Assembly: GCA_030628905.1 (NCBI GenBank)
Contig: DAOVQB010000002.1
Coordinates: 839 to 64,838 of the forward strand
Length of the DNA: 64,000 nt
Origin: Candidatus Eiseniibacteriota bacterium
Lineage (GTDB): Bacteria > Eisenbacteria > RBG-16-71-46 > CAIMUX01 > WJJG01
Direction of reading: 5' to 3'
In this document: one piece after another, positions 7,839-53,800 of the stretch
Numbering within the stretch: the first letter of the stretch is position 1
Layout: each line of letters starts with the position of its first letter
Made by a program: the position numbers and the translations under genes
Notes under the pieces: model-generated
Told to the model about the DNA's origin: nothing
The model's database searches: none
The model's input: the letters and a program-made list of their open reading frames with translations, nothing else

Positions 7839-7904
7839 GTATAAGCCTTCTTCTCAACCCACACAGATATGGGAATCGTGTATCGATACGCGCCGAGGTG
7901 GGAA

Positions 7905-10702: not shown

Positions 10703-10725
10703 CATCTCTTTCCTGCATTCCGGAA

Positions 10726-12036: not shown

Positions 12037-12074
12037 GCCGTGGGACGAATACCATGAGGCGAATGCCGTGGGGA
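12018..12074. repeat. Four imperfect ~14-bp tandem repeats (GAATGCCGTGGGRC-like) in the MFS / hcn-like divergent promoter region
   Basis: gaatgcctgtgagg / catgccgtgggacg / gaataccatgaggc / gaatgccgtgggga. Confidence 0.6.
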
Positions 12075-12150
12075 TTGCCTGGAAGAGCTGGCCGGGTGTA
12101 GGCTATGTGGCTCGAGCGCGCCAAATCAATAGGCGGAGGGCTGACCCAGC

Positions 12151-37336: not shown

Positions 37337-39580
37337 ATGCCTCAACTGAATGAAATCCTTCGCAAGGAAGCCCTACTGCAGGGCTCCGTCACTCTCTTCG
37401 AACTCTACTCTCCCGAGATTGCCGAGAAAGTGAAGGCTGGTCAGTTCGTGGTCGTGCGGACAGATGAGTATGGCGAACGCATTCCCCTCACGGTGGCAGG
37501 ACATGATCCTCATACGGGATCGATCACGATTATCTTCCAAGAGGTTGGTCTATCCACGAAGAAGTTGGGCCGGTTCAATCGGGGCGAGGTGATCGCCGAC
37601 GTCGTGGGACCCTTGGGGCTGCCCAGTAACATCAGGAGGCTTGGAACGGTTGTCTGCGTGGGGGGTGGCGTTGGTGTGGCCGTGGTCTATCCCGTGGCCA
37701 AGGCCTTCAAGGAAGCAGGCAATGAGGTTGTCTCGATCATAGGCGCCCGCAGCAAGGATTTGCTCATCCTTGAAGACGAGATGCGGGCCGTGAGCGACGA
37801 ACTGCTTGTGACCACTGACGATGGGAGCTATGGCCACCACGGTTTCGTGACCGACGTGCTGAAGCGGCTGATAGACGAAGGGCGAAAGATCGACGAGGTA
37901 ACGGCCATTGGCCCTGCGGTCATGATGCGCGCAGTCACGGATGTGACCCGCGAGCCCGGTATCCACACGATCGTCAGCCTCAATACTCTCATGGTTGACG
38001 GCACCGGGATGTGCGGATGTTGCCGCATCACAGTTGGAGGTAAAACGAAGTTCGTCTGTGTGGACGGACCCGAGTTTGACGGACACAAAGTCGACTTCGA
38101 GGAGTTGCTCAATCGATCCGCGATCTATCACAGAGAAGAGCGCCGGGCCGAATGGGATCACAAATGTCGCGTGGAGGCCGCCGCGAATGCCTTGAAACGA
38201 CAGAAGAGCCGGACACCCATGCCGAAGCAGCACCCCATGCGGCGCGCTCGTAACTTTGATGAAGTGGCTCTAGGATACACTGAGACGCAGGCGATCATCG
38301 AAGCCAACCGTTGCCTGAATTGCAAGACTTCCCCCTGCATCGCGGGCTGTCCGGTTGAAATTGACATCCCAGCATTTATCGCGCTCATCCGCGAGGGCGA
38401 CTTCATGGGTGCGATCCACAAGATCAAGGAAAAGAACAGCTTGCCTGCCATTTGCGGACGTGTCTGTCCCCAGGAGGATCAGTGCGAGATCAACTGCGTC
38501 TTGAGCAAGAAAGGTCAGCCCATCGCCATCGGCCGCCTGGAACGCTTCGTCGCCGATTACGAAGCGGCTCAGGGTGAAATCAAGCCGCCTCCTCTTGCGG
38601 CTCCTTCGGGAAAACGCGTTGCCGTGATCGGCGCTGGTCCCGCGGGACTCACCGTAGCAGGAGAACTGGTCAAGCTGGGACATCAGGTCACAGTGTTTGA
38701 GGCCTTACACAAGGCGGGGGGGGTGCTTGTCTACGGCATCCCAGAGTTCCGCCTGCCGAAAGCCGTTGTGCAACAGGAGTGCAACTACATCGGGAAGATG
38801 GGCGCAGACATCCGTCTAAGCTTTGTGGTCGGCAAATCGAAGACACTTGATGAGTTGATGAAGGATGGCTACGATGCCGTTTTCGTTGGAACAGGTGCCG
38901 GCCTACCCTACTTCATGAACATCCCTGGCGAGAATCTGAACGGCGTATACTCAGCCAATGAATTCCTCACGCGTGTCAATCTGATGAAGGCCTACCGTTT
39001 CCCCGAGTACGACACGCCGATCCACCTGGGAAGACGGATTGCTGTTGTCGGTGGCGGGAATGTGGCGATGGATTCTGCGCGCATCTCGCTGCGCCTGGGC
39101 GCCGAGAAGGTCTACTTGGTCTATCGCCGCGCCCGCGAGCAGATGCCCGCCCGCGAGGAGGAGATTGTGAATGCCTTCGAGGAAGGCGTCATCCCCATGC
39201 TCTTGACCAATCCTGTTAAGATCCTGGGCAATCAGAAGGGTTGGGTAGACGGCATGGAGTGCATCAAGATGGAGCTTGGCACGCCGGATGCATCTGGCCG
39301 CCGGAGGCCCATCCCGATCGAGGATTCCGGGCATGTGATCGACGTTGATATGGTCATTATAGCGATCGGCCAGGGCCCGAACCCGCTCCTAACCCAGACC
39401 ACGCCGGACCTGGAAACCAACCGCTGGGGCAATATCTCCGCGGATGAGGAGACTGGCCAGACATCCAAGCGGGGCGTTTTTGCTGGCGGGGACATCGTCA
39501 CCGGCGCAGCCACGGTGATCCTGGCCATGGGCGCTGGCAAGAAAGCAGCCGCAGCAATTGACAAGCACTTGGGGGCCTGA
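37337..39580 (+). CDS. Single-polypeptide fusion of NfnA/PyrK-like (FAD / 2Fe-2S ferredoxin-NADP reductase) and NfnB/GltD-like (NADPH-dependent glutamate-synthase small-subunit family)
   Basis: N-terminal ~280 aa is PyrK/SudB-like (CGCCRI cluster). C-terminal ~465 aa is GltD-like (RCLNCKTSPC..., VAVIGAGPAGLTVAGEL, VAVVGGGNVAMDSAR). Confidence 0.85.
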   Translation: MPQLNEILRKEALLQGSVTLFELYSPEIAEKVKAGQFVVVRTDEYGERIPLTVAGHDPHTGSITIIFQEVGLSTKKLGRFNRGEVIADVVGPLGLPSNIRRLGTVVCVGGGVGVAVVYPVAKAFKEAGNEVVSIIGARSKDLLILEDEMRAVSDELLVTTDDGSYGHHGFVTDVLKRLIDEGRKIDEVTAIGPAVMMRAVTDVTREPGIHTIVSLNTLMVDGTGMCGCCRITVGGKTKFVCVDGPEFDGHKVDFEELLNRSAIYHREERRAEWDHKCRVEAAANALKRQKSRTPMPKQHPMRRARNFDEVALGYTETQAIIEANRCLNCKTSPCIAGCPVEIDIPAFIALIREGDFMGAIHKIKEKNSLPAICGRVCPQEDQCEINCVLSKKGQPIAIGRLERFVADYEAAQGEIKPPPLAAPSGKRVAVIGAGPAGLTVAGELVKLGHQVTVFEALHKAGGVLVYGIPEFRLPKAVVQQECNYIGKMGADIRLSFVVGKSKTLDELMKDGYDAVFVGTGAGLPYFMNIPGENLNGVYSANEFLTRVNLMKAYRFPEYDTPIHLGRRIAVVGGGNVAMDSARISLRLGAEKVYLVYRRAREQMPAREEEIVNAFEEGVIPMLLTNPVKILGNQKGWVDGMECIKMELGTPDASGRRRPIPIEDSGHVIDVDMVIIAIGQGPNPLLTQTTPDLETNRWGNISADEETGQTSKRGVFAGGDIVTGAATVILAMGAGKKAAAAIDKHLGA

Positions 39581-39627
39581 AGCCCGGAGTCCTAGGGGCT
39601 CCGGCATTACCATTGGGAGATGTGCAC

Positions 39628-41787
39628 ATGCAGACGCTCGACCTCGCATCTTCCAGTTCCGGAGTCCATCTGATCCGCAAGGAGACGGTTCTGCCAGCCG
39701 GATCCCATGAGGTCTCGGCAGAGATCGTCATCCTCCCGGGTGCAAAACTCGTGATTGAGCCGGAGACGGCACTCCACTTCGCGGCGGGCATCGGTCTCAC
39801 AGTCATGGGCACACTACAGGCCGTCGGATCCGTAGACAAGAAGATCACCTTCGAGGGACAAAGCTGGCCGGGGGTCACGTTCATAGGCTCGGAGATAAAA
39901 GATTCCCACATCGCGCACGCCAGCATTACACGTGCAAGGGGACGGGCCTGGGCGGGCGAGTTTAGCCAGCACGGCATTCCCGTCTATGGCATGGCATCTA
40001 CGGATACGAATGTTGTTGGCGCCGCCATCCAGATACACGGCAGCAGCACCTGTCTGATCCTACTCACAGACATGCTCTTCAAAGGCAATGGCTTCAATGC
40101 AGATGGCGGTGCGGTTTTCGTCAAGCAATCCACCGTAGAATTCAATCGCTGTTCGTTTGAGTCCAACTTCGCCGGCAACGGCGGGGCCCTGCATTTGGTC
40201 AACTCCTCTGCTGTACTCGAATCATGCACGTTCGCCGAAAATGGCAGTGAGGGAGCGACTGGAACCGGTGGTGCCATCTTCGCAAGTGATTCCTCGGGCC
40301 ATATTGGGTTGTGCAAGTTCAATAGAAACGCCAGTTACGACGGTGCGGCTATCGTCTGCCACAACTCGACCCCCTCGATCCGATCCTGCACCTTCAACGA
40401 AAACAGTGCCATCAATAATGGCGGTGCGATCAAGTGTACTGGTACGTCCATGCCGCAGATACTGCGCTGTTCGTTTGCGGGGAATAAGGCCGGCGCTTGT
40501 GGCGGTGCAATCCACGTCACAATCGACGGCCGGCGGCCGTTACAAATGAGCCGCAGCACATTCGAGGACAACACCTCCGGACAAGAGGGCGGGGCTCTCT
40601 TCTGTGATGCCGATTCACATGCACAGCTCTCGGGTTGTCGTTTCCTGCGCAATTGTGTCCAGAAGAAAGCCCACTCCGGCGGTGGTGGGGCCATCTATTG
40701 TGAAAAGGGTTCGCATCTCAACATTGACTCCAGCGGCTTCGAGGACAATCAGGCAGTGCGCGGTGGAGCCATCGCCTTCAGCAACGCCGAATCCGTGACT
40801 TCCGCGGGCACTACATTGGTCACGCTCAAGGACGCATTCTTCAAGCGCAACCTAGCGTCAGCAATGGGAGGAGCGCTATGCGTCAGCCAGGACAGCAGTC
40901 TTGACATAAGCGCCAATTGCGCATTCCTCGACAACGAGGCGCTACAGGCAGGAGGTGCCATCTCCAGTGGCAAAGGATCCAAGGTGCTTGTCTGTGCTAC
41001 GGAGTTCCACCGCAACAAGGCTCCATCCGGCGGCGCTGTGGATTTACGCGGACAACGGAGTCGGTTGGATGCATGCATTTTCAAAGACAATGAAGCAGGA
41101 AGGACCGGCGGTGCCATCGCCTGCCATTCAACAATGCACGTCCACGCGTGTCAATTCGAGCGCAACGTAGCGCTAGAGATCGGAGGAGGAGCAATCTGGT
41201 GCATAGACACAACGACGATAATTGACACTTGTTCATTCACCAAGAACAGATCGGACGGATCCCTGGTCGGCGGAGCAATCCGATGCCAGGATACGGATGG
41301 AAAGTATCAGACAAGCAACACCTTCTCCAAGAATGTTCCCAACAACGTCTCCTATCAAAAAACATCCTATCCAACCCCAGTTGGACTCAAGTATAAGCGT
41401 ATATTCGAGGACTGTTGGATTGTGACGGCCTACTACGGGAGCCCGCATCATCCGCGTGTTACAGCCATCCGGGGCCTGCGCGACAGGTTGCTTGTATCTC
41501 GCTTCGCAGGGCCTCCAATGACCCTGATCGATTCTCTCTATCGCTCGGTTGGCAAGACCACTATGGGGCAATGGTGGATCTCTAAGCTGGAGGAGCCAGG
41601 CAGCCAACTGCCGCGAGCCGTGACTAGACCGCTCTGTGATGTATTGTATCGCGTCTCTGGGACCTCGCGCCAAGCACCGTCACGCGGGCATGTAAGGGCC
41701 CGCGATGCGCGAGGATTTACGTGTGATCGAGATGCCGCCTCTTTCCCAAAACCTCCCTCAGCATCTGGCCGGTGTGAGACGACTTGA
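39628..41787 (+). CDS. Right-handed parallel beta-helix repeat protein with a distinct ~150-aa C-terminal domain
   Basis: About 20 repeats of Nx(A/S)xxGGAI(xC). No obvious signal peptide. The C-terminus carries CWIVTAYYGSPHHPRVTAIRGLRDRLL. Alternative TTG start at 39613. Confidence 0.7.
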   Translation: MQTLDLASSSSGVHLIRKETVLPAGSHEVSAEIVILPGAKLVIEPETALHFAAGIGLTVMGTLQAVGSVDKKITFEGQSWPGVTFIGSEIKDSHIAHASITRARGRAWAGEFSQHGIPVYGMASTDTNVVGAAIQIHGSSTCLILLTDMLFKGNGFNADGGAVFVKQSTVEFNRCSFESNFAGNGGALHLVNSSAVLESCTFAENGSEGATGTGGAIFASDSSGHIGLCKFNRNASYDGAAIVCHNSTPSIRSCTFNENSAINNGGAIKCTGTSMPQILRCSFAGNKAGACGGAIHVTIDGRRPLQMSRSTFEDNTSGQEGGALFCDADSHAQLSGCRFLRNCVQKKAHSGGGGAIYCEKGSHLNIDSSGFEDNQAVRGGAIAFSNAESVTSAGTTLVTLKDAFFKRNLASAMGGALCVSQDSSLDISANCAFLDNEALQAGGAISSGKGSKVLVCATEFHRNKAPSGGAVDLRGQRSRLDACIFKDNEAGRTGGAIACHSTMHVHACQFERNVALEIGGGAIWCIDTTTIIDTCSFTKNRSDGSLVGGAIRCQDTDGKYQTSNTFSKNVPNNVSYQKTSYPTPVGLKYKRIFEDCWIVTAYYGSPHHPRVTAIRGLRDRLLVSRFAGPPMTLIDSLYRSVGKTTMGQWWISKLEEPGSQLPRAVTRPLCDVLYRVSGTSRQAPSRGHVRARDARGFTCDRDAASFPKPPSASGRCETT

Positions 41788-44700
41788 TCGTTGCTAGTGT
41801 TTCCGGTGTTCCACGCGCAACCACAGTGCCACCGCCGTCTCCGCCTTCCGGTCCGAGGTCGATCACCCAATCGGCCCTCTTGACAACATCCGGATGATGC
41901 TCGATGACGATGACCGTATGCCCGCCATCGACGAGTCGATCGAAGACGGACAACAGCCGGACTGTGTCGTCGAAATGCAGACCTGTGGTCGGCTCATCAA
42001 ATAGATATAGATTACCGAGCGCAGCTTTTTCCGCACATCCGCCCCGATCCGTAATCCCACGCCCGACAGGGCGGGAAACCCCACCCCTTCTACAGCCGGC
42101 ATTCTGGCTCCGGCTCAGCGGAGCGTCCTTTCCGCCAATCAGTTCTGTGACCAGCTTGAGGCGTTGGGACTCTCCCCCCGAGAGGGTCGTGGCTGGCTGG
42201 CCAAGCCGGAGATATCCCAGCCCAACTTCCTCCAGGATCAGCAGCGGCTGCACGACTCCATCCGTGTCACCGAAGACCCCCAATGCCTCGCTGACCGTCA
42301 TTTCCAGTACATCCGCGATCGACGCTCCGTGGTAGGTGCACTCGAGCGTCTCTTCGTTGTAGCGCTTCCCATGACACTCCTCACAGCGAATCCAGATATC
42401 CGCGAGGAAATCCATGCTCACCTTGATGCGCCCCATCCCTTGGCATCTCTCGCAGCGCCCACCTCGTGTGTTGAAAGAGAACCGGGCCTTGCGATATCCG
42501 CGTGCCTGCGCGCAATCCGTCTCCGCAAAGAGACCGCGAATATGATCAAAGATGCCTGAGTACGTGGCCGGATTACTGGCGGGCGTGGATCCGATCGGAG
42601 TCTGATCCAGACTTAGCACCCTCCGAAAGCGCTCCATTCCCTCAAGACCCGCACAGCCAACCGGTGCCCCTCTATCACAGGAAGCCATTAGTACATCAAA
42701 TATAAGGGAGGATTTGCCGCTGCCTGACACACCAGTGATCGCGATTATCCCGCCAGATGGGATCTCAATGTCGAAGCCGTGTAAGTTGTTTGCGGATGCC
42801 CGGGTGATTGTAATGCCTTCTCCAAGGCAGCGGCGCCTTTCTGAAACCGGTATGGCACTCTCCTCTCTTAGATAGTACCCGGTCCGCGAGGCAGGATTGT
42901 CCATGATAGCATCAACGCTTCCCTCGGCGACAATCCGCCCACCGTGTCTGCCGCCGCCTGGCCCGAGATCGATCACATAGTCGGCCGCTCGAATCACGCT
43001 GGCGTCATGCTCCACGACGACTACTGTGTTCTCTGCAGCGCACAGGCCCTTCAGGGTCTTGATCAGTCTCTGTGTATCACAAGCGTGTAGCCCAATGGTG
43101 GGCTCATCTAAAACATACGTGACCCCGCAGAGTCCGGACCCGAGCTGCGTTGCCAGGCGGACACGCTGGGCTTCACCCCCAGATAGCGTGGCGGCACTGC
43201 GATCGAGGCTCAGATACCCCAGACCGACATCCACCAAGGACTGGAGCCGTTTGGCAACCTCCTGGCGGATCTCCGCTGTGACACTCAACTGGCGGTGATC
43301 CACTCCGTGATCAGCCGGCTCGGCTTCCAGGGCGGAAAGCATCCGGAGAGTAGCCGCAATGGACATGCTGCTTAGCGCCGCGATGTTGAGACCGGCAAAG
43401 CGCACGCAGCGCGCAGCGCGGTTGAGCCGCTCTCCGTGGCACTCGGGACAGACCTCATCCTTCATCACACCCCTCATGGCCTCGCCTCTGTGATCGGCAT
43501 GCTTGCGCTCATATTCCTCGTTGACATAGTGCGAGAATCCACGCCATGTTGTCTCCCAGGTGTATTGGCCCTCCCGCTTCTCGCGCTTGAAATGCCATGT
43601 CACCTGGTAGGCCTTCTCGCCAGTTCCGTACATGGCGATCTTGCGCGCCCGTGCATCGAGCTGCTTCCAGGGAACATGTAAGTCAATCCCGCAGTCCGCC
43701 TCGACTGCGGTCAATATCGCAAGATGCTGCCCCTTGGGATCTCCGTAGTATCTCCCTGTCTTATGCCCGGAGATGGCCCCCTCGAAAAGGGACCGGTTCG
43801 GATCCGTAATCAATCTGTCTGGGTCACAGACCGTGATCACTCCAAGCCCCTTGCAGGACGGACACGCACCCTGGTGCTGATTGAAGGAGAACATCCTGGC
43901 CATCAAGCTCTCACAGTCCGGGCAGTGGGCCCTTCCGGCTCTGGCATAGAGGAGTCGGTAGTACTCGTAGATCTCGGTTATGGTCCCCACCGTGGAGCGT
44001 GGATTCCGCGACGCCACCCTCTGACTGATCGCAATCGTGGGGGTCAGCCCCGAGGCCTCCTCGATCTGTGCTTCTGCAGATCTGCCCAGAAAACGGCGTG
44101 CAAAGGTTGGGAGGGACTCCCTGAAGCGCCTCTGCCCCTCAGCAAAAATGGTATCAAATGCGAGGGAAGATTTGCCGCTGCCCGAGACCCCGGTGATCAC
44201 GGTTATACGGTTCGCTGGAATGCTGACATCGATCCCCTTCAGATTGTGTGTCGAGATACCCCCCAAGCGGATTGGAGGAGGAGTGTAATCAGCATGAGGA
44301 GTGTGAGCAGTGTAGTGGGTAGTGCCTGGGGATTCGATGGTGCGCGCGGAGTAAGGTTCCGTATGCCGCTTGCTGGGAGCCTTCGGCGTGGACCGCAATT
44401 GGCAGGGCGCGGATTCGATTCCCTGCCACCCTCTCGCCCTGAGAGCTGCCCCGGTGTGGGAAGCCTCAACCGCAGATATCGCTTCCGGTGTTCCCGCTGC
44501 TACCAGCTTCCCGCCACAATCGCCACCCTCCGGTCCCAGGTCAATGACCCAGTCGGCCACTTTCACAAATTCCAGGTTGTGCTCAACTGCGATGACCGTG
44601 TTCCCGCTGTCCACCAGACGGTTGAGTGCATCAAGCAGGATTTCAATATCCGCCAGATGTAGCCCCGTTGTCGGCTCATCTAGAATGTAGAGCGTTTTCC

Positions 44701-47269
44701 CCGTGGATGGCCGGCCCAGTTCAGAAGCCAATTTGATCCGTTGGGCCTCTCCACCAGACAGCGTGGTGGATGGCTGTCCAAGGGACAGATAGCCCAACCC
44801 GACATCGCGCATGGCACACAGAATACGAGCCATCTTGGGTTGATCAGCGAAGAAGCGGTATGCCTCCTCGACAGGCAGCTCCAACACATCGAGAATACTC
44901 TTGCCTTTGTGATGGATCGTGAGTGTATCTTCGTTGAAGCGTCGTCCGCCGCACTCCTCGCAGACGACGTCAACATCACCCATGAAATGCATCCCGATCA
45001 CCTGAACGCCGGCGCCCTGACATGCCTCACACCGTCCGCCCTTCACATTGATTGAGAACCGGCCCTTCTTCCAGCCGCGCTGCTTCGACTCCGGTAGCGA
45101 GGCAAATAGCGCACGCACATGGTCGAACAGGTTCGTGTAGGTTGCAGGATTGCTCCGCGGTGTCCGTCCGATCGGGAACTGATCGATGTCGATGATCTTG
45201 TCGATGAACTCCGCCCCCCGGATCCCGACATGGCGACCCGGCTGCACACTCGCTCCATGTAGGCTACGGCGCAGGGATCGCGCCAGGATGCCCTCAATTA
45301 AGGTCGATTTGCCTGAGCCGGACACGCCGGTAACGACGTTGAACGCGCCCAACCGAAACGACACATCGATTCCCTTCAGATTGTGTTCACTCGCACCAAG
45401 GACTTCCAGGAACCGGCCATTTCCCGGCCGCCGCTTCGCGGGAATTGGGATCTGGCTCTCACCTGACACGTAGGCTCTCGTACGGCTCATCCTCAGGGAA
45501 TCCGTACTGAGGAGATCCCCCGCCTTCCCGCTGAAGAGGATCCGGCCTCCCTTATCCCCAGCCCCGGGGCCCATATCGACTAGCCAGTCGGCACTTCGAA
45601 TCGTGTTCTCATCGTGTTCCACAACTAAGACGGTATTGCCGTTGTCACGAAGCAAGGCCAGTATCTCCAATAGGCGTCGGTTGTCTCGTGGATGCAAGCC
45701 GATAGAGGGTTCGTCCAGAACATAGAGAATCCCACGCAGGCGTGTCCCCGCCTGCGTGGCCAGCCTAACTCGTTGAGCTTCGCCACCAGATAGTGTCGTG
45801 GACCGCCGATTGAGCGTCAGATGGCCCAGGCCGAGCTGCTGCAATAGAATGGTGCGCTTCTGCATCTCACGGACAATCGGCCCCCCTATGGGAGCATCGG
45901 AGGGCGCAAAGTGCAGCCTGTCCAAGAAGGATGCCAACGCATCCAGCGACATCGCGTCTATGTCGGAGATCGTATGACCCTCAAATGTTACGGACAATGC
46001 CTCCTTACGCAGACGGGTTCCTTGGCAGGCCCCACATGGCACCGATCTGGCAAAGCGCAGGATGTTCTTGTTCCGGTGACGCTTCAGGATCTCTTCCATG
46101 ATCGGGACAATTCCCTTGTAATAACCCTCCTCCCGCGGCTTGGGCGTGATCCCGCTCCATTTCATGCGGGATTCAAGCGGGTGCTTCCCAAAGGGAATCA
46201 TGATTCTATCGGAGCCATGGAGCACGACCTGCTGTTGCTCTTTCGTCAGTTCGCTCCAAGGTATGTCCACACTGAACCCGTGTGCCTGGCAGACCTGATT
46301 GAGTATGTCCAGTGTTACCTGGGAGTAGACGATGTATCCGCTATCCGTGGTCAACGCGAGCGCTCCCTGGCGAAGAGTTCGGCCTGGATCAGCGATGAGG
46401 AGTTCCGGGGCGATGCGATCCTGTACACCAAGCCCCCTGCATGACGGGCAGGCGCCATATTGGGAATTGAACGAGAATAACCGGGGTCCGATTTCGGGAA
46501 ATCCTGCGCCGCACTGCGGGCATGTGTTTGCTGATGAGAATCGCTCGATGCGCTCATTGCACAGAACCTTAAGGACGCGTCCACCTATGCGCAGACTCTG
46601 TTCTATGCCTCTCAGAAGAGTATCATGGTTCCCAACGGACATGGTGATGTGTCCGACCACGACTTCGATTTCGTGCACCTTCTGCGATTCCGGAATAGGC
46701 GTAGGATCAGTAGGCAGGAGTTCGCCGTCGATGCGAACCTCCGAGAATCCATCGCGACGGAGTCTCTCGAGTTCCCTGCGGTACTGTCCCCTGTGACCCT
46801 CTACGATGGGTGCCAAAAGGAGGATCTCCTCGCCCGCAAAGCGCTTGAGCAGCGCCTCGCTGATGCGCTCTGGACTCAGCGCGGCAAGGAGCGCACCGCA
46901 TTCCGGGCAATGCGCCACACCCAGCTTGCCAAAGAGAAGTCGAAGGAAATCGTAGAGCTCAGTCAGCGTACCAAGCGTTGATCGTGGATTGCGAACCACG
47001 GTCTTCTGGTCGATGGAAAGCGTGGGTGACAGCCCGCTGATGTGGTCAACCGCAGGGCGTCCCAGCTTGCCGAGGAACTGCCGGGCATGAGAGGAAAAGG
47101 ATTCTAGATAGCGCCGCTGTCCCTCCCTGCAGATCGTGTCGAACGCCAGGGAGGACTTCCCTGAACCGGAAACCCCTGTAATCACTATCAGGGCATGATG
47201 AGGGAGAGCAACATCAACCGCCTGAAGATTGTGTTCCCGTGCCCCCCGAATGATTATTTGTCCGTTCAC
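41717..47269 (-). CDS. uvrA: Tandem double UvrA (two complete excinuclease ABC subunit A units in one 1850-aa polypeptide)
   Basis: Unit 1 starts MNGQIIIRGAREHNLQAVDVALP...GVSGSGKSSLAFDTI. Unit 2 restarts at IRLGGISTHNLKGIDVSIPANRITVITGVSGSGKSSLAFDTI. There are four Walker A motifs and four LSGGE signatures. Each unit ends with the WV(I/V)DLGPEGG tail. Confidence 0.9.
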   Translation of the reverse strand: MNGQIIIRGAREHNLQAVDVALPHHALIVITGVSGSGKSSLAFDTICREGQRRYLESFSSHARQFLGKLGRPAVDHISGLSPTLSIDQKTVVRNPRSTLGTLTELYDFLRLLFGKLGVAHCPECGALLAALSPERISEALLKRFAGEEILLLAPIVEGHRGQYRRELERLRRDGFSEVRIDGELLPTDPTPIPESQKVHEIEVVVGHITMSVGNHDTLLRGIEQSLRIGGRVLKVLCNERIERFSSANTCPQCGAGFPEIGPRLFSFNSQYGACPSCRGLGVQDRIAPELLIADPGRTLRQGALALTTDSGYIVYSQVTLDILNQVCQAHGFSVDIPWSELTKEQQQVVLHGSDRIMIPFGKHPLESRMKWSGITPKPREEGYYKGIVPIMEEILKRHRNKNILRFARSVPCGACQGTRLRKEALSVTFEGHTISDIDAMSLDALASFLDRLHFAPSDAPIGGPIVREMQKRTILLQQLGLGHLTLNRRSTTLSGGEAQRVRLATQAGTRLRGILYVLDEPSIGLHPRDNRRLLEILALLRDNGNTVLVVEHDENTIRSADWLVDMGPGAGDKGGRILFSGKAGDLLSTDSLRMSRTRAYVSGESQIPIPAKRRPGNGRFLEVLGASEHNLKGIDVSFRLGAFNVVTGVSGSGKSTLIEGILARSLRRSLHGASVQPGRHVGIRGAEFIDKIIDIDQFPIGRTPRSNPATYTNLFDHVRALFASLPESKQRGWKKGRFSINVKGGRCEACQGAGVQVIGMHFMGDVDVVCEECGGRRFNEDTLTIHHKGKSILDVLELPVEEAYRFFADQPKMARILCAMRDVGLGYLSLGQPSTTLSGGEAQRIKLASELGRPSTGKTLYILDEPTTGLHLADIEILLDALNRLVDSGNTVIAVEHNLEFVKVADWVIDLGPEGGDCGGKLVAAGTPEAISAVEASHTGAALRARGWQGIESAPCQLRSTPKAPSKRHTEPYSARTIESPGTTHYTAHTPHADYTPPPIRLGGISTHNLKGIDVSIPANRITVITGVSGSGKSSLAFDTIFAEGQRRFRESLPTFARRFLGRSAEAQIEEASGLTPTIAISQRVASRNPRSTVGTITEIYEYYRLLYARAGRAHCPDCESLMARMFSFNQHQGACPSCKGLGVITVCDPDRLITDPNRSLFEGAISGHKTGRYYGDPKGQHLAILTAVEADCGIDLHVPWKQLDARARKIAMYGTGEKAYQVTWHFKREKREGQYTWETTWRGFSHYVNEEYERKHADHRGEAMRGVMKDEVCPECHGERLNRAARCVRFAGLNIAALSSMSIAATLRMLSALEAEPADHGVDHRQLSVTAEIRQEVAKRLQSLVDVGLGYLSLDRSAATLSGGEAQRVRLATQLGSGLCGVTYVLDEPTIGLHACDTQRLIKTLKGLCAAENTVVVVEHDASVIRAADYVIDLGPGGGRHGGRIVAEGSVDAIMDNPASRTGYYLREESAIPVSERRRCLGEGITITRASANNLHGFDIEIPSGGIIAITGVSGSGKSSLIFDVLMASCDRGAPVGCAGLEGMERFRRVLSLDQTPIGSTPASNPATYSGIFDHIRGLFAETDCAQARGYRKARFSFNTRGGRCERCQGMGRIKVSMDFLADIWIRCEECHGKRYNEETLECTYHGASIADVLEMTVSEALGVFGDTDGVVQPLLILEEVGLGYLRLGQPATTLSGGESQRLKLVTELIGGKDAPLSRSQNAGCRRGGVSRPVGRGITDRGGCAEKAALGNLYLFDEPTTGLHFDDTVRLLSVFDRLVDGGHTVIVIEHHPDVVKRADWVIDLGPEGGDGGGTVVARGTPETLATIKSSHTGQMLREVLGKRRHLDHT

Positions 47270-47320
47270 GAGACCTCAAGTGGCTTTGCACTCGGGCAGG
47301 ATGATATCCCGAGTGGCCTC

Positions 47321-48676
47321 TCACTCGCGCAGGATGACATTCATCTCCTCCAGTGTGATCCCCAGTTCGGTGGCAGTCTGTGCGCGGTCGTTACCATAAT
47401 ACTGCAACATCCGGGCGATGTGCTCGCGCTGGACATCCTCCAGTTTGCGAGGCCGAAAGCCATCTTCGGGACCACGGTCCAGTGAAGCAATCTTACTGCG
47501 GATGTACGGCGGAAGTGAGTCTATCGTGATGATACTGCCCTCCTCGTTGACCACCGAGCCCTCAATAATGTTTCGCAGTTCTTGGATATTGTCTGGGAAG
47601 TCGTACTTGCGTAGGAAATCGAAGAATTCCCCGGAGAAACCAGTGATCTCCTTACCGATTTTCTTGAGGGCCTTCTTGAGAAAGAGATCCGCCAATAGAG
47701 GAAGGTCTTCCATGCGCTCGCGAAAGGGTGGAATTCTGACGGAGTTCACCATCAGATGATAGAGGAGATCGTCATGGAATCTGCCCTTATACGCCGGGTT
47801 CGTCAAGTCGCACGAAGATGCAACAATAAATCGCGCTTCGCTCTTGCGAATTTGAGTGGAGTTCTCCCTGTAGTACTCTCTGGTCTGGAGCACGCGCTTC
47901 AACCTCACTTGCATGGGTACGCTCAGGTGCTCTATCTCACCGAGGAAGAGTGTCCCGTCAATAACCTCCTCGAGAAAGCCAGGACGTTCCTCCCGGTCAC
48001 CGCTCCAGACTCGGCCCTGGCCGAAGAGGGCCGATGAGAACCGGTCCGGGTCCTGTCCGGAGGCGTCGACCGCGACGAATGGCTTCTCCCGCCTCGGACT
48101 TGCGCGATGAATGGCGCGCGCAAGCATTTCCTTGCCGGTCCCTCGCTCCCCCCATATGAGAATATCCAGATCACTCGATGCCATTTTCTCAATCTGGTGC
48201 AGGAAACGGATCATCTCAGAATTCTGCGTCGGGAACAGCTCAAAGGCCTCAGCGAACGTGAGATCCTCACGTTTGAGCTCGATGGGCAGTTGACTAATCG
48301 AATGCCGCAGTTCCTGGTGCTCGAGAGCCGCACCGATAACTTCCAGGAGATGCTCTTCATCCACCGGCTTGGTCAAGTAGTCAAATGCACCAAGCTTCAA
48401 GGACTTGACGGCCAGATCCACGTCGCTCACACCAGTCAGAATGATCACCGGTGTCTTGATACCTCTCTCGTGCATCATCACGAGGATATCCATGCCGCTG
48501 ACATTCGGCATGTCCATGTCCAGCAGGATAAGGTTGAACTCCTGCCTAGAGAGCAGGTCCGAGATCTCTCTCGAATCGTTGACCACCTTTGTCTCAAACT
48601 GCCCGGTCTGCATGAGGAAGACCATCAGGTAATTGGTCACCGCAATGTCGTCATCAACGATAAGGATCGTTGTCAT
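47321..48676 (-). CDS. NtrC-family response regulator (REC + AAA+ + HTH) with a degenerate GAFTGA motif
   Basis: ILLDMDMP REC. IWGERGTGKEMLARAIH Walker A. At the GAFTGA position it reads ALFGQGRVWSGDR. Confidence 0.85.
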   Translation of the reverse strand: MTTILIVDDDIAVTNYLMVFLMQTGQFETKVVNDSREISDLLSRQEFNLILLDMDMPNVSGMDILVMMHERGIKTPVIILTGVSDVDLAVKSLKLGAFDYLTKPVDEEHLLEVIGAALEHQELRHSISQLPIELKREDLTFAEAFELFPTQNSEMIRFLHQIEKMASSDLDILIWGERGTGKEMLARAIHRASPRREKPFVAVDASGQDPDRFSSALFGQGRVWSGDREERPGFLEEVIDGTLFLGEIEHLSVPMQVRLKRVLQTREYYRENSTQIRKSEARFIVASSCDLTNPAYKGRFHDDLLYHLMVNSVRIPPFRERMEDLPLLADLFLKKALKKIGKEITGFSGEFFDFLRKYDFPDNIQELRNIIEGSVVNEEGSIITIDSLPPYIRSKIASLDRGPEDGFRPRKLEDVQREHIARMLQYYGNDRAQTATELGITLEEMNVILRE

Positions 48677-48764
48677 GGTCGCTCTCCATCCTGATCGAAT
48701 CCGTCCTCAAGACCGCAATACACCCGAACTCCAATCAGTGCAAATCGAATGCACTGGCTTTGGC

Positions 48765-50762
48765 CTACTGCTTATCATTACCCGGCGCCACCGCTGTTTC
48801 ACTGGTTGACTTGACGGGAATCCTGATCACGAATGTGGTTCCAACCCCGAGTTCACTCTTGACCGAAATGCTTCCACCATGCTCTTCGATGATTCGGTAG
48901 GCAATCGGTAGACCCAGTCCCGTTCCTCCAGATGCTCGTTTAGTCGTGAAGAATGGATCGAAGATCTGCTTCTGTGTCTTCTCGTTCATCCCCTTGCCGT
49001 TGTCTTCCACTTCAATTACAATAGTGTCCTCTTCCATCCGGGTCCTGACAGTGATCAGCCCCTTTCTGTCATCGGGCATGGCCTGACTCGCATTCACTGT
49101 CAAATTTACCAACACCTGCTCTATCTTGTGCGAGTTCCCGGTAAAGGTTAGAACATCAGGATGCAGTTCCAGTTTGATCTCCGCATGCTTGTGTACTTCG
49201 TTGTGCACCAAACGTGTGCAGGCTTCAATTGCCGTGTTCACATCAACTTTGTCTATGAGTAGGCCTTCATCGCGGCGCGCGAAGCGCTTGAGGCCTTCCA
49301 CGATTCCCTTGATCCGCTCTGAGCCGTGCGCCATATCATTGACCAGAACCATGACATGCTCCCGGAAGAACTTGTACGGAAGGCGAGCGATTATCAGGTC
49401 TGGATTGCGCTCAAACTCAGCATCAACAAGGGGCAGCATGTCCTCCAAGGCCTGTTTGATGATCTTGACATTTCCTCTGATAAACTGGTTTGGGTTGTTG
49501 ATTTCGTGTCCAATACCGCTAACCAGCTGTCCGAGTGAGGCGAGCTGATCGGCCTGCTGGAGTTGCTGCTCATAGGTCCTCTCCAGCGTAACATCGCGAT
49601 AGAACTCAATGATGCCCTCTACCTCGTGGTTGGGATCGAATATCGGTAGGGCGTGAACGTCGAGATACCGGTCTCCATCCTTGACGGTGAGCGTGATCGG
49701 CGCTTTGTCATGCACGATCCTGGACAATCGACAATCCTTGCACGGCTTGTCCCGGTGGAAGAAGGATTCATAGCACTTGGCTCCTGCCAGCATCTCCGCG
49801 CGATTCGTCATCACCAGTCTGCGATCCCGATCTATCAGCGCCACATCGCCAGGGAAGGCAGTGAAGATAGTCTCAAGCCGCGTCTTGGATTCCTGCCAAC
49901 CGCGGTTCAGGCGATCCAGGTATAGATTGGCCATGTCCAGTTTTTGCCGCTGCTCTTCCATTTCCCTGGTGCGGGTCTCGATCTCCTTCTCGAGATCAGC
50001 GAAGCGCCGGCGGTAGTCCGCCTCTTCCTCCTCCTTGAGGGCTAGGTGCTGCGAGAGTTCCTTACGCTCAATAGCTAGACTGAGCATGCGGCCAATCTCA
50101 CTCAGCATCTTCTGCTCTTCGGGCAAGAGTTGGACGTCACTATCGATATATCCGACGCGGATTTCGCCAGAGATCTCCTGATTCTCCACGAGCTTGGTGC
50201 TTAGGTAGTTCTCGCCTGTGAGTTCCTGGCCATACTCCTGCCCTTGGTAGACAGAGTAAACCACCACCTGCTCGGGGTACTGCATCCCACGCCGCAGGAA
50301 GCCTGGCAGCTGAGTGAAGAACTCCCTAACGGAGCGCGATATTGCGATCCATTCCGCGACCGAATAGAGACAGGCCAACTCCTTGACGCGCTCGTCCTTG
50401 TCCGTTGCCGCGAAGCGGCTCAGGCCGTCTACCTGGGTGCCGAAGAAGAGAAAGACCTCGCCCTTACTGGTATCTGTATATCCGATTCTAAGGGGAATCG
50501 AACAGGATTTGGCATCCTTGGGCGTGAAGATAACGGTGCCACGAATATCTTCGCGGGCTTGGATCATCCCGGCACGAAAAGTCTGCAGTGAAGACTGAGC
50601 CAGGACTGTTGTCAGGGTTTCGCCGGCAAGGGCCAGCTCCTGGGGCCCGCATCCGCGACACAAAAGGCGGCTGGCGTGGAGGATCTTCTCATTACTGTCA
50701 GCGACCAGTAGGAAATCGAAATTGCCCTCGATGAATGTATACAGGTCTTCCAGTTTGATCAT
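48765..50762 (-). CDS. PAS-domain sensor histidine kinase
   Basis: [10 protein letters not shown]-box. [14 protein letters not shown]2 box. Coiled-coil / PAS regions upstream. Confidence 0.85.
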
Positions 50763-50892: not shown

Positions 50893-53800
50893 TCAGTGAA
50901 CCCTGAATCGCTCAGTGCCCACCGCGCGGATCTCCCGCTTGTAGCGACCTCCGTGTGTGAGTGCAGGGGGGATCGGCCTAGGTCTGGCCCGTACGTTGGG
51001 CGTGACGAGGTTGTCTTTTCCAGGCCACGCCCGCTGCTCTCCGGTGTTCCAATAGAAGGCGGCAAGTTCGCCCAGATGTTCTCGCACCCGGGAAGTGAGT
51101 TCCGTGGTGAGGCTCTCTGCAGAAGCCGAGGGCAACCTAACCCCAAACTGCTCGGCCAACCCCGCGAGCAGCTTCCATCCCGGAACACCCGATGGTGGTG
51201 GGATTGCTCGTGAGTACTCAATCAGGTGCCCCTCGAAGTTGCAGCGCGTCCCCTCCGTTTCCAGGTAGGTTGTACCGGGAAGCGTCACGTCGGCAAACCG
51301 GGTCGTTTCCGTGGCACACCAGTCCACTGCCGCAAGGAACTCAACATTGTGGAAGTAGGCCCCCGTCCGATTGTGCTCCATCGGGTCCTCCCCGATGATA
51401 ATCGCTCCTCGGATCCTCCCATCGGCGAGCATGGCACGCAGCTCCTCGTGGGAAGAGGCGCCCGCAAACCCTATAGACGGCCGGCGTCCCGGCAGGAACC
51501 CTGGGTCGGCGCCCGTCACCTCCAATCCCGCCACATTGGCTGTTAACCTGGGCAGCAGCAAGTCGGCGTGCACGCCCGCTGTCCGCAGGAGCAGAAGGAA
51601 GTTGGCCAACGTCTCCATATCCCCTGACGCCTGGTCCTGCGGCCTATCTGGACTGTGAACAAAGACAACCCTCTTGGCATCCCCAAAAAGGGCCGCCGCT
51701 CTGTGAATGCTCTCCTCAGAGACGCCCGTCAGATCGGAGACAGTGCCAAGATCCCTCTCCAAGCTGGCAAGGAATTCATCGCCGCCCGGCATGCTCTGGG
51801 CCTTGTCAGGCGACAGCGTGCCATCCTCCAGAAGCACCTGCATGACGCCATTCCAGAGAACTGAGGCCCTGCCACGCATGGGATCCATCGACACGGCCGC
51901 TAGATGCAGATCGCTTGTATTGAGGATCGAGTTGGCGACGATCAGCTGCGCGCCTTTCTTTGCCGCCTGGATGATCTCAACGGAAAGGATCAAGTGGTCT
52001 GCTTCAGTGCTCGTGTTGTTGCAGACGATCAGATCGGCATCCGCAAGCACCGAGCGGTCAGCCGTCGAGGCCGTGAAACCAAAGGATTGATCCAGGATGC
52101 CCGCATCCTTCCCCACCTCCAAGGCCGCCAAGGAGCCAATATTGTTTGTGCCCAGGCCCTCCCGTGCAATCCGGCTGGCTATGTAGAGTTCTTCATTGCT
52201 CAACGCTGGCGAGGCAAAGACGGCGACTGATTCCCGGCCATGCTTCGCCACAACCTCCTTCATGCCGTCCACGATTCTTTGGTATGCCTCGGGAAGAGCA
52301 ACCTCCTCCGACGCGCTACCCGAACGCACCAACGGGGCCGTCAGTCTCTTCCGTTTAATAAAGCGTTCATAACCGAAACGGCCATAACGACAGAGGTACT
52401 CGCCAGGTACACCCGAGGGACCGATGAAGTAGCGGTTGTCTCCAAAGCGCTTGACGGTTATTGCGCATCCGATGGAGCAGGAAGCGCAATGGGTTGCCAC
52501 ATTGTCCGTCGCCAACGCAGCCCGCCCCGGAAACGGATACTTGATGGTCAATGCACCCGTGGGACAGGCATCAACGCAATTCCCGCAGCTGATACAACTG
52601 GTCTGGACCAGCGGGTCATTCATGGCCGGGCGCATCTCGGTCCGGAAGCCCCGGCCCACCAATCCCAGTGCGGCAATGGGTAGGACACGCGCGCATGTGC
52701 GGATGCAGCGAGAACACAGAACACACTTGTTTGGATCGTAGACGATGTATGGGTGACGGCTGTCAACCTTGTGCTTCCTGACATAGCCGGAGAACTCGTC
52801 CATGTCGACACCGTATTCCTGGGCGTATAACCTGAGGGCACAGTCGTCATAGCGGACACAACCGCAGGAAAGGCATCGATCCACCTCGTGCGCCATGTCT
52901 TCTGGCTCGAAGCCGGTCGCAACCTCGTCGAAGCTACCCTGGCGCTCTTCCACATCGATCATGTGGACTGCGTGGCGCGGGCTCTCGGAGACCTCACCCA
53001 ACTCCGCCTGGCCAGGTTTGGCCCAGAACTCCTTCGTCACCACAAATGGTTCGGACTCCAGCGCCTCACCGCTGAGGTAGCTGTGAATGGCCTGGGCCGC
53101 CCGTCGGCCATCGCGAATGGCATCAATCACTACCGTGGGGCCATCATCGGCAGCATCGCCTCCAGCGAAGATGCCTTCGATGTTTGTTTTCATCGTCTGG
53201 GTATCGACCTCGATCGTTTCCCAGCGGGAAATGCCGAGCTCTTTTCCCTGCACTGATCGAAGGCCGTCGAGCACCGGGGCCTGACCGATGGCCGAGACGG
53301 CAAGCTGGCAAGGAAGCTCGAACTCGGATCCCTCCAGCGGAATGGGACGACGGCGCCCGGACGCATCGGGTTCACCCAGCTTCATCCGGATACACTTGAG
53401 CGCCTTGAGCTTCCCTTTCTCGGAACTGATCCCAACCGGAGCAGCCAGCTCCATGATCTCGATGCCCTCTTCGAGGCAGTCCTCTATTTCCATCCGGTCG
53501 GCCGGCATTTCGGCCTTGGTCCTCCGATACAGGATGATGACCTTGTCGGCGCCGCACCGCCATGCTGTGCGCGCCGCATCCATGGCCGTGTTCCCGCCGC
53601 CCACGACAACAATTGTACCTGTCACTGGGTCGGGATGATCGGCCTTCTTCAGCAGGAACTCAGCCCCGGTAACAACGCCTTCGGTATCGAACTCGCCCTC
53701 CACACGCATCGGCTTTCCTGCCCAGCCGCCAACGGCGAGGAAGAGAGCCGCGTGGCGCTTCTTGAGTTCGTCGAGCGAGATGTCCTGGCCCACACGAACT

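What the first reader, a model, noticed from the sequence alone, without database searches (positions are those of the whole stretch)
41717..47269. 1850-aa covalent double UvrA with a Gly/Arg-rich insertion in the last ATPase site
Two complete UvrA units are fused head-to-tail, each with two ABC ATPase modules. Each unit has the N-terminal (I)IIRGAREHNL / THNLKGIDV opening and the C-terminal WVIDLGPEGG tail. UvrA works as a dimer, so this is in effect a single-chain dimer. I recall doubled UvrA proteins of this size in Chlamydiae. Here it occurs in a high-GC lineage with T9SS-type C-terminal domains. Separately, there is a ~40-aa insertion (GGKDAPLSRSQNAGCRRGGVSRPVGRGITDRGGCAEKAALGN) between the fourth LSGGE signature and its Walker B (about 42016..42148). 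No uvrB or uvrC is adjacent.
Basis: partly seen in the sequence, partly recalled or inferred. Interest (0 to 1): 0.62.

Follow-up and report, generated by a model that had tools for sequence, protein, structure and literature searches.

The report
Tandem-fused double UvrA repair protein
This is a real 1850-residue protein made of two DNA-damage-sensor (UvrA) units joined head to tail, but it belongs to a large, old and already annotated family of such doubled UvrAs, and its odd Gly/Arg-rich insertion is a floppy loop at a spot that varies in length across the family.

Summary
Window 41717..47269 (-) is one uninterrupted 1850-aa ORF with four intact ABC ATPase modules. A 35-aa surplus lies between the fourth signature motif and its Walker B.

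It is not unusual. The same protein is in GenBank, annotated as UvrA, in a Candidatus Eisenbacteria MAG. That is a separate assembly which reproduces both the junction and the insertion. All 120 listed database hits, the 150 best 50%-identity cluster representatives and most of the 80 best genome loci (some encode only about 1250-1320 aa) are also long multi-unit UvrAs.

The two halves are not equal:
- The N unit (aa 1-944) is a full class-I UvrA with the UvrB-binding domain.
- The C unit (aa 1000-1850) lacks that domain and half of zinc module 1.

N units resemble N units, and C units resemble C units, across the family. This points to one ancient fusion followed by differential domain loss.

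AlphaFold predicts the insertion as disordered (pLDDT 31-39). It sits at a site expanded in 22 of 113 relatives, and those loops are usually basic.

Most likely function: a nucleotide-excision-repair damage sensor acting as a single-chain pseudo-dimer with a single UvrB docking site. That step is inferred, not shown.

Verdict: new member of a known kind, low to moderate interest.

The parts
41717..47269 (-). Whole doubled uvrA gene, 1850 codons plus stop, with a GTG start and a GAGG Shine-Dalgarno-like motif 4 nt upstream.
   Evidence: It is 100% identical to GenBank protein P0001, named 'excinuclease ABC subunit UvrA, partial [Candidatus Eisenbacteria sp.]'.
44438..47269 (-). N unit (aa 1-944): a complete class-I UvrA with ATP-binding I/II, signature I/II, UvrB-binding domain, insertion (DNA-binding) domain and three 4-Cys zinc modules.
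   Evidence: NF001503 scores 1186.3 bits against a cut-off of 1147, and TIGR00630 scores 1157.6 against 729.8. It is 48% identical to E. coli UvrA end to end. It aligns to residues 23-953 of PDB 2r6f. CxxC pairs lie at aa 121/250, 274/412 and 747/770.
46556..46876 (-). UvrB-binding (UvrA interaction) domain of the N unit, aa 132-238. It is the only one in the protein.
   Evidence: PF17760 gives one stretch, aa 132-238, E 1.2e-20.
44273..44437 (-). Inter-unit linker, aa 945-999. It is Pro/Thr/His/Ser-rich and of low complexity.
   Evidence: It lies between the C-terminal and N-terminal unit profiles. The linker is 57 aa here against 20-65 aa in same-type relatives, with no sequence conservation. 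GC at codon position 2 is raised, as expected for this composition.
41720..44272 (-). C unit (aa 1000-1850): a UvrA unit without the UvrB-binding domain. Both ABC modules, the insertion (DNA-binding) domain and zinc modules 2 and 3 are intact.
   Evidence: T. maritima UvrA residues 126-260 are skipped in the alignment. E. coli residues about 129-265 are absent. PF17755 matches aa 1149-1260. The AlphaFold2 model has pLDDT 89 and pTM 0.85. Foldseek gives TM 0.85 to Bst UvrA 2r6f.
43880..43924 (-). Scar where the UvrB-binding domain is missing in the C unit: CPDCESLMARMFSFN (aa 1116-1130). Only the first CxxC of zinc module 1 survives.
   Evidence: Among the 91 C units scored at this position, 46 keep two CxxC motifs (in those lacking the UvrB-binding domain, a mini finger CPxC-x8-9-CxxC), 37 have no CxxC, and 8, including this one, have a single CxxC.
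42014..42139 (-). Gly/Arg-rich insertion loop (aa 1711-1752) between the fourth signature helix and its Walker B strand. Net charge is +5.
   Evidence: AlphaFold2 gives pLDDT 31-39 and coil for aa 1715-1747. There is no second copy in the window, and the other reading frames contain stops.
47278..47326 (-). Two copies, 33 bp apart, of a roughly 31-bp direct repeat. Each holds the palindrome GAGTG-N6-CACTY, immediately upstream of the start codon. This is a possible operator pair and its role is unknown.
   Evidence: This is the only place in the window with the motif.

Best explanation
The gene encodes an ordinary member of a large, ancient family of tandem-fused ('doubled') UvrA proteins, from a Candidatus Eisenbacteria (Eiseniibacteriota) genome.

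It belongs to the asymmetric subtype. The N unit is a full class-I UvrA that can dock UvrB. The C unit has lost the UvrB-binding domain and half of zinc module 1, but keeps both ATPase modules, the DNA-binding insertion domain and zinc modules 2 and 3.

Most likely mechanism (inferred, not shown):
- The two units pair with each other through the normal UvrA dimer interface.
- One chain therefore forms the DNA-clamping UvrA2-like damage sensor with four active ATP sites.
- It recruits a single UvrB through the N unit's UvrB-binding domain. This is an A2B1-like complex.
- It then hands the lesion to UvrB for UvrC incision, as in standard bacterial nucleotide excision repair.

The Gly/Arg-rich insertion is a disordered, positively charged expansion of a loop that is hypervariable only at the fourth ATPase module of this family. 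It does not interrupt any catalytic motif. At most it adds a non-specific basic arm near the DNA and UvrB-facing signature-II region.
For: Shown:
- The ORF is continuous and has four intact motif sets.
- The N unit passes both UvrA equivalog cut-offs and has PF17760.
- The C unit lacks the domain but folds confidently as UvrA.
- An identical protein is annotated as UvrA in GenBank. It comes from a second assembly whose contig boundary lies elsewhere.
- All 120 listed hits are 1494-2328 aa. 124 of the 130 multi-unit sequences tested show the full set of four ABC-module hits with both profiles.
- Three architectures occur, defined by UvrB-binding-domain content: none 91, both 19, N only 13 (this type), C only 1. 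These were checked with Pfam counts of 0, 2 and 1.
- The window N unit is on average 62% identical to other N units and 45% to C units. The C unit is 55% identical to other C units and 46% to N units. The two window units are 46% identical to each other. In a neighbour-joining tree N units form a clade of 115/124 and C units a clade of 105/124. This indicates one old fusion with positional orthology.
- 579 stretches in GTDB species representatives encode relatives, including cultured Planctomycetota.
- The 150 best 50%-identity representatives are 1032-2343 aa.
- Loop: spacing is invariant at sites 1-3. At site 4 it is expanded in 22/113 relatives, by +2 to +35 aa, with a mean net charge of +3. 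The loop is predicted disordered.

Context from papers:
- UvrA2UvrB1 and UvrA2UvrB2 complexes both exist, and the stoichiometry is unresolved (PMC11985968).
Against: - Intramolecular pairing of the two units was not tested. The chain is longer than the 1200-aa limit of the structure tool, and no coordinates were available to compare linker length with the distance from one protomer's C-terminus to the other's N-terminus.
- It is unknown whether the genome also has a stand-alone canonical uvrA. If it does, this protein could be an accessory.
- uvrB and uvrC are not in the window.
- The model in PMC11985968 has the second UvrB trigger UvrA dimer disassembly. A chain with one UvrB-binding domain and a covalent link cannot do this in the same way.
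- The tree used a single outgroup (E. coli) and a distance method, so the rooting is weak.
- No paper describing doubled UvrA was found in the searchable library.
Confidence: 0.6

Rival explanations
1. The two units of one chain do not pair with each other. Two chains associate N with N and C with C, or in a swapped N-with-C' manner. The result is a four-unit assembly that tethers a repair-competent class-I-like UvrA dimer to a class-II-like dimer without UvrB docking.
For: N and C units have diverged to 46% identity, and each keeps its own positional lineage. Homotypic interfaces could therefore have been preserved separately. Class-II UvrAs form homodimers of their own (PDB 2vf7 and 7sh1 appear among the hits).
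Against: Family linkers are short, typically 20-35 aa, and unconserved. That is as expected for a simple tether between two partners in one complex. Complementary loss of the UvrB-binding domain from only one unit is easier to tolerate if the units work as one pseudo-dimer. No direct test was done here.
Confidence: 0.22
2. The protein is not the cell's excision-repair sensor. It is an accessory UvrA-like ATPase, as class-II UvrAs DrrC and Ecm16 are for DNA-intercalating drugs, and a separate canonical uvrA elsewhere in the genome does the repair.
For: The commonest relatives (91 of 124) have no UvrB-binding domain in either unit and so cannot dock UvrB in the canonical way. Ecm16 works independently of UvrA, UvrB, UvrC and UvrD (PMC9328131). 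There are no NER partners in the window. The neighbouring genes are unrelated: oxidoreductases, a PMP-repeat protein and a sigma-54 two-component pair.
Against: The N unit passes the strict UvrA equivalog cut-off and keeps a good UvrB-binding domain. The C unit is closer to class-I UvrAs (768 bits to 3pih, 45% identity to C. thermocellum UvrA) than to DrUvrA2 (614 bits, 39-40%) or Ecm16 (440 bits, 33%). uvrA is usually unlinked to uvrB and uvrC, so their absence from the window says little.
Confidence: 0.15
3. The fusion or the insertion is an assembly or sequencing artefact. In that case these would really be two adjacent uvrA paralogues, or a chimeric or erroneous 126-bp stretch.
For: The source is a metagenome-assembled genome. 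No read data were available. The exact insertion sequence is seen only in this organism.
Against: Two assemblies with different contig ends agree at 99.977% over 8537 bp, including the junction and the insertion. More than 120 independent relatives from many phyla have the same continuous four-module architecture. The insertion is a multiple of three, stays in frame while both other frames have stops, and has no repeat or second copy in the window. Relatives carry unrelated insertions of +2 to +24 aa at the same site.
Confidence: 0.02

Closest known systems
Canonical class-I UvrA (E. coli UvrA; Geobacillus stearothermophilus 2r6f; T. maritima 3pih; M. tuberculosis 3zqj; C. thermocellum 9gx*)
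   Same: The N unit matches end to end, at 48% identity to E. coli UvrA. It has every domain, three zinc modules and both ATPase sites, and it passes NF001503 and TIGR00630. The C unit shares the same core fold (TM 0.85 to 2r6f) and 49% identity to E. coli UvrA.
   Different: Here two units are on one chain, whereas canonical UvrA is a roughly 940-aa protein that forms a non-covalent homodimer. The C unit lacks the UvrB-binding domain and half of zinc module 1, and it has a 35-aa loop expansion.
Class-II (IIa) UvrA: D. radiodurans UvrA2 (2vf7), DrrC, Ecm16 (7sh1)
   Same: Like the C unit, these lack the UvrB-binding domain and the first zinc finger (PMC9328131).
   Different: They are stand-alone proteins of about 800-840 aa. 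The C unit is more similar to class-I UvrAs than to them (768 against 614 and 440 bits; 45% against 39-40% and 33% identity) and still carries the first CxxC of zinc module 1. The domain loss therefore looks independent.
Chlamydial-type doubled UvrA (NCBIfam NF001885 / PRK00635, 1809 positions). The attribution to Chlamydiae is from my own knowledge.
   Same: It is a single chain of about 1800 aa carrying two UvrA units.
   Different: The window protein scores 1198.6 bits against the 3054 cut-off. Its C unit aligns best to the first half of that model (positions 317-826) and not the second. Five other representatives of about 1810 aa also fail the cut-off. This is a different subfamily, and no chlamydial sequence was available for direct comparison.
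Doubled UvrAs of Planctomycetota (for example Blastopirellula marina DSM 3645, Bremerella sp. JC770)
   Same: They share the tandem four-module layout and positional orthology of the N and C units, with 43-46% identity over the whole query.
   Different: In these, both units keep a UvrB-binding-domain-sized segment. The open frames (measured stop to stop) are about 2300-2450 aa, leaving roughly 370-410 aa after the fourth module. The three tails inspected are clearly similar to one another, and the one scanned has no Pfam match.

Membership tests
UvrA, class I (NER damage sensor) | Two ABC ATPase modules per unit, with intact Walker A, signature, Walker B and H-loop motifs. | tested here: met
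   All four modules of the chain carry the motifs and align with E. coli UvrA.
UvrA, class I (NER damage sensor) | The curated equivalog score is reached (NF001503 cut-off 1147; TIGR00630 cut-off 729.8). | tested here: met
   The N unit alone scores 1186.3 and 1157.6. The C unit alone scores 979.5, below the NF001503 cut-off, and 955.7, above the TIGR00630 cut-off.
UvrA, class I (NER damage sensor) | UvrB-binding domain flanked by zinc module 1. | tested here: met
   This is met for the N unit only (PF17760 at aa 132-238; CPEC/CPQC). It is not met for the C unit.
UvrA, class I (NER damage sensor) | Works with UvrB and UvrC in the same genome, and recognises damage in vitro or in vivo. | not testable with these tools
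   The window holds no uvrB or uvrC. The rest of the genome could not be searched.
Class-II UvrA (UvrA2/DrrC/Ecm16) | Lacks the UvrB-binding domain and the first zinc finger. | tested here: inconclusive
   The C unit lacks the domain but keeps one CxxC of zinc module 1. The whole protein does contain a UvrB-binding domain, in the N unit.
Class-II UvrA (UvrA2/DrrC/Ecm16) | Closer in sequence to class-II than to class-I references. | tested here: not met
   The C unit scores 767.6 bits to T. maritima UvrA, against 613.9 to DrUvrA2 and 440.3 to Ecm16. Foldseek identities are 45%, 39-40% and 33%.
Chlamydial-type doubled UvrA (NF001885) | Equivalog score of at least 3054 bits over the 1809-position model. 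| tested here: not met
   The score is 1198.6 bits.
Tandem-fused UvrA family (uncurated; defined here from database relatives) | Four ABC modules on one chain, with an N unit orthologous to other N units and a C unit orthologous to other C units. | tested here: met
   The N unit is 62% identical to N units against 45% to C units. The C unit is 55% identical to C units against 46% to N units. Position-specific clades contain 115 and 105 of 124 units.
Tandem-fused UvrA family (uncurated; defined here from database relatives) | The two units pair within one chain (single-chain pseudo-dimer). | not testable with these tools
   The chain exceeds the 1200-aa limit of the structure tool, and no multimer or coordinate tools were available.

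The most novel reading that the evidence does not exclude
The N-only subtype, with a UvrB-binding domain in the N unit only, may be a natural, obligately asymmetric, covalently closed UvrA pseudo-dimer. It would carry out nucleotide excision repair with exactly one UvrB and without UvrA dimer dissociation.

If it is the sole UvrA of these organisms, nature has already run the experiment. It would show that a second UvrB and protomer separation are dispensable for lesion hand-off.

The basic disordered loop at the fourth module lies at the signature-II / ATP-binding-II region, which in canonical complexes faces DNA and UvrB domain 1b. It might compensate for the missing contacts.
Probability: 0.3. 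Interest if true: 0.55.

Novelty: new member of a known kind. Interest (0 to 1): 0.25.

Why it matters
As a database object it is ordinary. The protein is already deposited and named UvrA, and doubled UvrAs are common in several phyla.

Its modest value is as a pointer. No description of the doubled family was found in the searchable literature. The family comes in three architectures, with two, one or no UvrB-binding domains.

The one-domain form found here bears on an unresolved question in bacterial excision repair: whether the working complex is UvrA2UvrB2 or UvrA2UvrB1, and whether a second UvrB and dimer disassembly are needed for hand-off (PMC11985968).

A purified single-chain asymmetric UvrA would be a convenient reagent for that question. 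Its two 'protomers' can be mutated independently.

Tried and rejected
- **Insertion as a mobile or palindromic element, or a frameshift pair.** Only short chance-level repeats were found (12-nt direct repeats 101 bp apart, which is not a multiple of 3). There is no second copy in the window, and both other frames have stops. An intein is ruled out by size and by the lack of splice-junction residues (read from the sequence).
- **Literature search for doubled, fused or chlamydial UvrA.** Six searches and several papers gave no description of the fusion. Timmins 2009 is not held.
- **Finding a chlamydial sequence for direct comparison.** Five representatives of about 1810 aa were scanned, and none reached the NF001885 cut-off.
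- **Stand-alone C-type units.** The exhaustive representative search was meant to reveal these. It cannot, because doubled proteins score about twice as high as any single unit and fill the top 150.
- **Motif-regex splitting of units.** This failed for most relatives and was replaced by profile-based splitting.
- **T9SS C-terminal domain in the neighbouring PMP-repeat protein.** It was not detected with NCBIfam.
- **The upstream GAGTG-N6-CACTY palindrome.** It is not enriched elsewhere in the window, so no regulon could be inferred.
Full report

Yes. The ORF list gives 41717..47269 on the minus strand, 1850 aa, GTG start, and the translation has no internal stop. A GAGG motif lies 4 nt upstream of the GTG, and the N-terminus (VNGQIIIRGAREHNL) lines up with residue 1 of E. 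coli UvrA.

Four complete sets of ABC ATPase motifs are present:
- Walker A GVSGSGKS[ST] at aa 32, 648, 1027 and 1513.
- LSGGE(A/S)QR at aa 493, 837, 1362 and 1696.
- Walker B (Y[VIL][LF]DEP..GLH) at aa 516, 861, 1385 and 1755.
- H-loops at aa 550, 895, 1419 and 1789.

The quoted insertion is at aa 1711-1752 (window 42014..42139). The signature-to-Walker-B spacing is 55 at site 4, against 19-20 at the other three sites. The surplus over E. coli UvrA is 35 aa.

tblastn with E. coli UvrA, UvrB and UvrC finds nothing else in the window. The immediate neighbours are unrelated to repair:
- a Fer4_20/Pyr_redox_2 oxidoreductase;
- a PMP-repeat protein;
- a sigma-54 response regulator with its histidine kinase;
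- a large Fe-S/molybdopterin oxidoreductase.

**2. Is the fusion an artefact?**

No. The protein is 100% identical to a GenBank entry, 'excinuclease ABC subunit UvrA, partial [Candidatus Eisenbacteria sp.]', 1844 aa. That entry lies on contig JAGMDA010000019.1 of GCA_023128935.1.

The contig aligns to window 38717..47253 at 99.977% (2 mismatches in 8537 bp) and ends 16 nt inside the 5' end of the gene. It is therefore a different assembly, with a different contig break. It carries the same continuous junction and the same insertion.

Independently, 124 of the 130 multi-unit sequences tested, from many phyla, show the full set of four module hits with both profiles.

**3. Anatomy**

The N unit (aa 1-944) is a complete class-I UvrA:
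- It scores 1186.3 bits on NF001503 (cut-off 1147) and 1157.6 on TIGR00630 (cut-off 729.8).
- It aligns to residues 23-953 of Geobacillus UvrA 2r6f.
- It is 48% identical to E. coli UvrA over the full length.
- It has the UvrB-interaction domain PF17760 at aa 132-238.
- It has three four-Cys zinc modules.

A 55-aa Pro/Thr/His-rich linker follows (aa 945-999). Linkers in same-type relatives are 20-65 aa and unconserved.

The C unit (aa 1000-1850) is also UvrA, 49% identical to E. coli UvrA, but it is incomplete:
- The alignment jumps over T. maritima residues 126-260 and E. coli residues about 129-265.
- That region is the UvrB-binding domain plus the second CxxC of zinc module 1.
- What remains is CPDCESLMARMFSFN (aa 1116-1130).
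- Of the 91 C units scored at this position, 46 have two CxxC motifs (in those lacking the UvrB-binding domain, a compact CPxC-x8-9-CxxC finger), 37 have none, and 8, including this one, have one CxxC.
- The insertion (DNA-binding) domain PF17755 (aa 1149-1260) and zinc modules 2 and 3 are intact.

An AlphaFold2 model of the C unit, built with a 51-row alignment, has mean pLDDT 89 and pTM 0.85. It matches Bst UvrA with TM 0.85 and D. radiodurans UvrA2 with TM 0.78.

The C unit is closer to class-I UvrAs than to class-II proteins. It scores 767.6 bits to 3pih, against 613.9 to 2vf7 and 440.3 to Ecm16 7sh1. Structure-based identities are 45%, 39-40% and 33%. It therefore looks like a class-I unit that lost the domain, not a captured class-II paralogue.

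**4. The family**

Doubled UvrAs are abundant in public data:
- All 120 listed hits of the large protein search are 1494-2328 aa.
- Source names include Eisenbacteria, Krumholzibacteriota, Aminicenantes, Acidobacteria, Myxococcales, Bacteroidetes, Chlorobi, Rhodothermaceae and Planctomycetota.
- In GTDB species representatives, 579 stretches encode relatives. The best 80 are dominated by Planctomycetota, including cultured strains (Blastopirellula marina DSM 3645, Bremerella sp. JC770, Thalassoglobus neptunius KOR42 and three Planctomicrobium isolates). Among these strains, the Thalassoglobus and Planctomicrobium loci encode only about 1250-1285 aa and were not checked for a doubled layout.
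- An exhaustive HMMER search with the C unit returned 150 best 50%-identity representatives of 1032-2343 aa. Most are longer than 1500 aa.

Splitting every relative with N-terminal and C-terminal unit profiles shows three main architectures:

| UvrB-binding domain | Count | Typical length |
|---|---|---|
| Absent from both units | 91 | about 1600-1740 aa |
| Present in both units | 19 | 1850-2400 aa |
| Present in the N unit only (window type) | 13 | 1755-1926 aa |
| Present in the C unit only | 1 | 1767 aa |

Pfam confirms 0, 2 and 1 PF17760 stretches in one example of each main type.

Over 762 well-occupied alignment columns:
- The window N unit is on average 62% identical to other N units and 45% to C units.
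- The window C unit is 55% identical to other C units and 46% to N units.
- The two window units are 46% identical to each other.
- Each window unit is 50-51% identical to E. coli UvrA.

In a neighbour-joining tree, N units form a clade of 115/124 and C units a clade of 105/124. The N-only type is nested among the no-domain type.

The simplest reading is one ancient duplication-fusion followed by repeated loss of the UvrB-binding domain. The rooting is weak, because the tree has one outgroup and uses a distance method.

The curated 1809-position model NF001885 shows that a doubled UvrA is already a recognised annotation target. From my own knowledge it is built on chlamydial UvrA. The window protein fails that model badly, at 1198.6 bits against 3054. 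Its C unit aligns best to the model's first half. It therefore belongs to a different subfamily.

**5. The insertion**

It is in frame, unique in the window and not flanked by meaningful repeats, and both alternative frames have stops.

Across the family, the distance from signature to Walker B is invariant at modules 1-3. At module 4 it is expanded in 22 of 113 C units. The expansions are unrelated, mostly Lys/Arg/Gly/Ser/Pro-rich sequences of +2 to +35 aa, and the window has the longest. Mean net charge of the expanded loops is +3, and the window loop is +5.

AlphaFold2 predicts aa 1715-1747 as coil with pLDDT 31-39. This is the only segment of the C unit below 50. It lies between the signature helix (C-unit residues 699-713) and the Walker B strand (residues 755-759).

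The insertion is thus a real, lineage-specific expansion of a hypervariable disordered surface loop, and not a disruption of the ATP site. [quoted passage not shown] Signature-II of one protomer also forms the second interface with the UvrB docked on the other protomer (PMC12796330). A basic arm here could touch DNA or UvrB, but that is speculation.

**6. Mechanism**

Shown:
- a continuous chain;
- four intact ATPase sites;
- one UvrB-binding domain;
- two DNA-binding insertion domains;
- a confident UvrA fold for the C unit.

Inferred:
- The two units pair through the usual UvrA dimer interface, so that one chain is the UvrA2-equivalent sensor.
- It recruits one UvrB and hands over the lesion.

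UvrA2UvrB1 complexes on damaged DNA have been observed, and the working stoichiometry is still debated (PMC11985968). The same paper proposes that a second UvrB triggers dimer disassembly, which this protein cannot reproduce literally.

The rivals are inter-chain pairing (N:N and C:C), or an accessory role beside a canonical uvrA elsewhere in the genome. Neither could be excluded with the tools available.

**7. Verdict**

However, the units are unequal, the architecture is common, and the insertion is a variable loop.

The exact protein is already public and named UvrA. I rate it a new member of a known kind, with low to moderate interest. Its main value is that the one-UvrB-domain subtype is a ready-made asymmetric UvrA for mechanistic work.

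Noticed in passing
window 47278..47326 (minus strand, just upstream of the uvrA start at 47269): There are two copies, 33 bp apart, of a roughly 31-bp direct repeat (aTgTCATCCTGCgCGAGTGagAGgCCACTcG / aTaTCATCCTGCcCGAGTGcaAAgCCACTtG). Each contains the palindrome GAGTG-N6-CACTY. The first overlaps the stop codon of the upstream sigma-54 response-regulator gene. This could be an operator pair, for example for an SOS-type repressor, or hairpins. The motif occurs nowhere else in the window.
   Followed up: partly
window 41717..41787: The 3' end of uvrA overlaps by 71 nt, convergently, with the ORF 39613..41787 (+). That ORF encodes a 724-aa protein with Chlamydia-PMP/POMP repeats. GenBank annotates the same overlap, calling a 719-aa gene. 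No T9SS C-terminal domain was detected in that protein with NCBIfam.
   Followed up: partly
L047 (Blastopirellula marina DSM 3645), residues ~2050-2422 of the ORF 5749..13014; likewise L031, L005, L007, L010, L018, L062: Planctomycetota doubled UvrA ORFs are about 2300-2450 aa stop to stop. The seven examined have a 370-410-aa stretch after the fourth ABC module. The three tails read (L047, L031, L005) are clearly similar to one another and look like two related sub-repeats (motifs PWExDGxRWHT...WDG and MPWKKLGEKWHLSxKGFPPG). The one scanned (L047) has no Pfam match.
   Followed up: partly
relatives P0002-P0120 (C units): Where the UvrB-binding domain has been lost, many C units keep a compact CPxC-x8-9-CxxC mini zinc finger in its place (46 of 91 C units have two CxxC motifs, a count that also includes C units that keep the domain). 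Others have no Cys at all (37). A few, including the window, keep only one CxxC (8). This looks like stepwise decay of zinc module 1.
   Followed up: yes
window 47321..50762 (-): Directly upstream of uvrA, on the same strand, lies a sigma-54-dependent response regulator (451 aa; receiver, sigma-54 interaction and AAA lid domains). It is preceded by a PAS/HATPase histidine kinase (665 aa). Only 51 nt separate the regulator's stop from the uvrA start, so co-transcription is possible.
   Followed up: no
window 37337..39580 (+) and 50893..54585 (-): Two large multi-domain Fe-S flavoprotein oxidoreductases flank the region. One has DHODB_Fe-S_bind, Fer4_20 and Pyr_redox_2 domains. The other is 1230 aa with Fer2_4, Fer4_20, Pyr_redox_2, Fer4_Nqo3 and Molybdopterin domains.
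   Followed up: no
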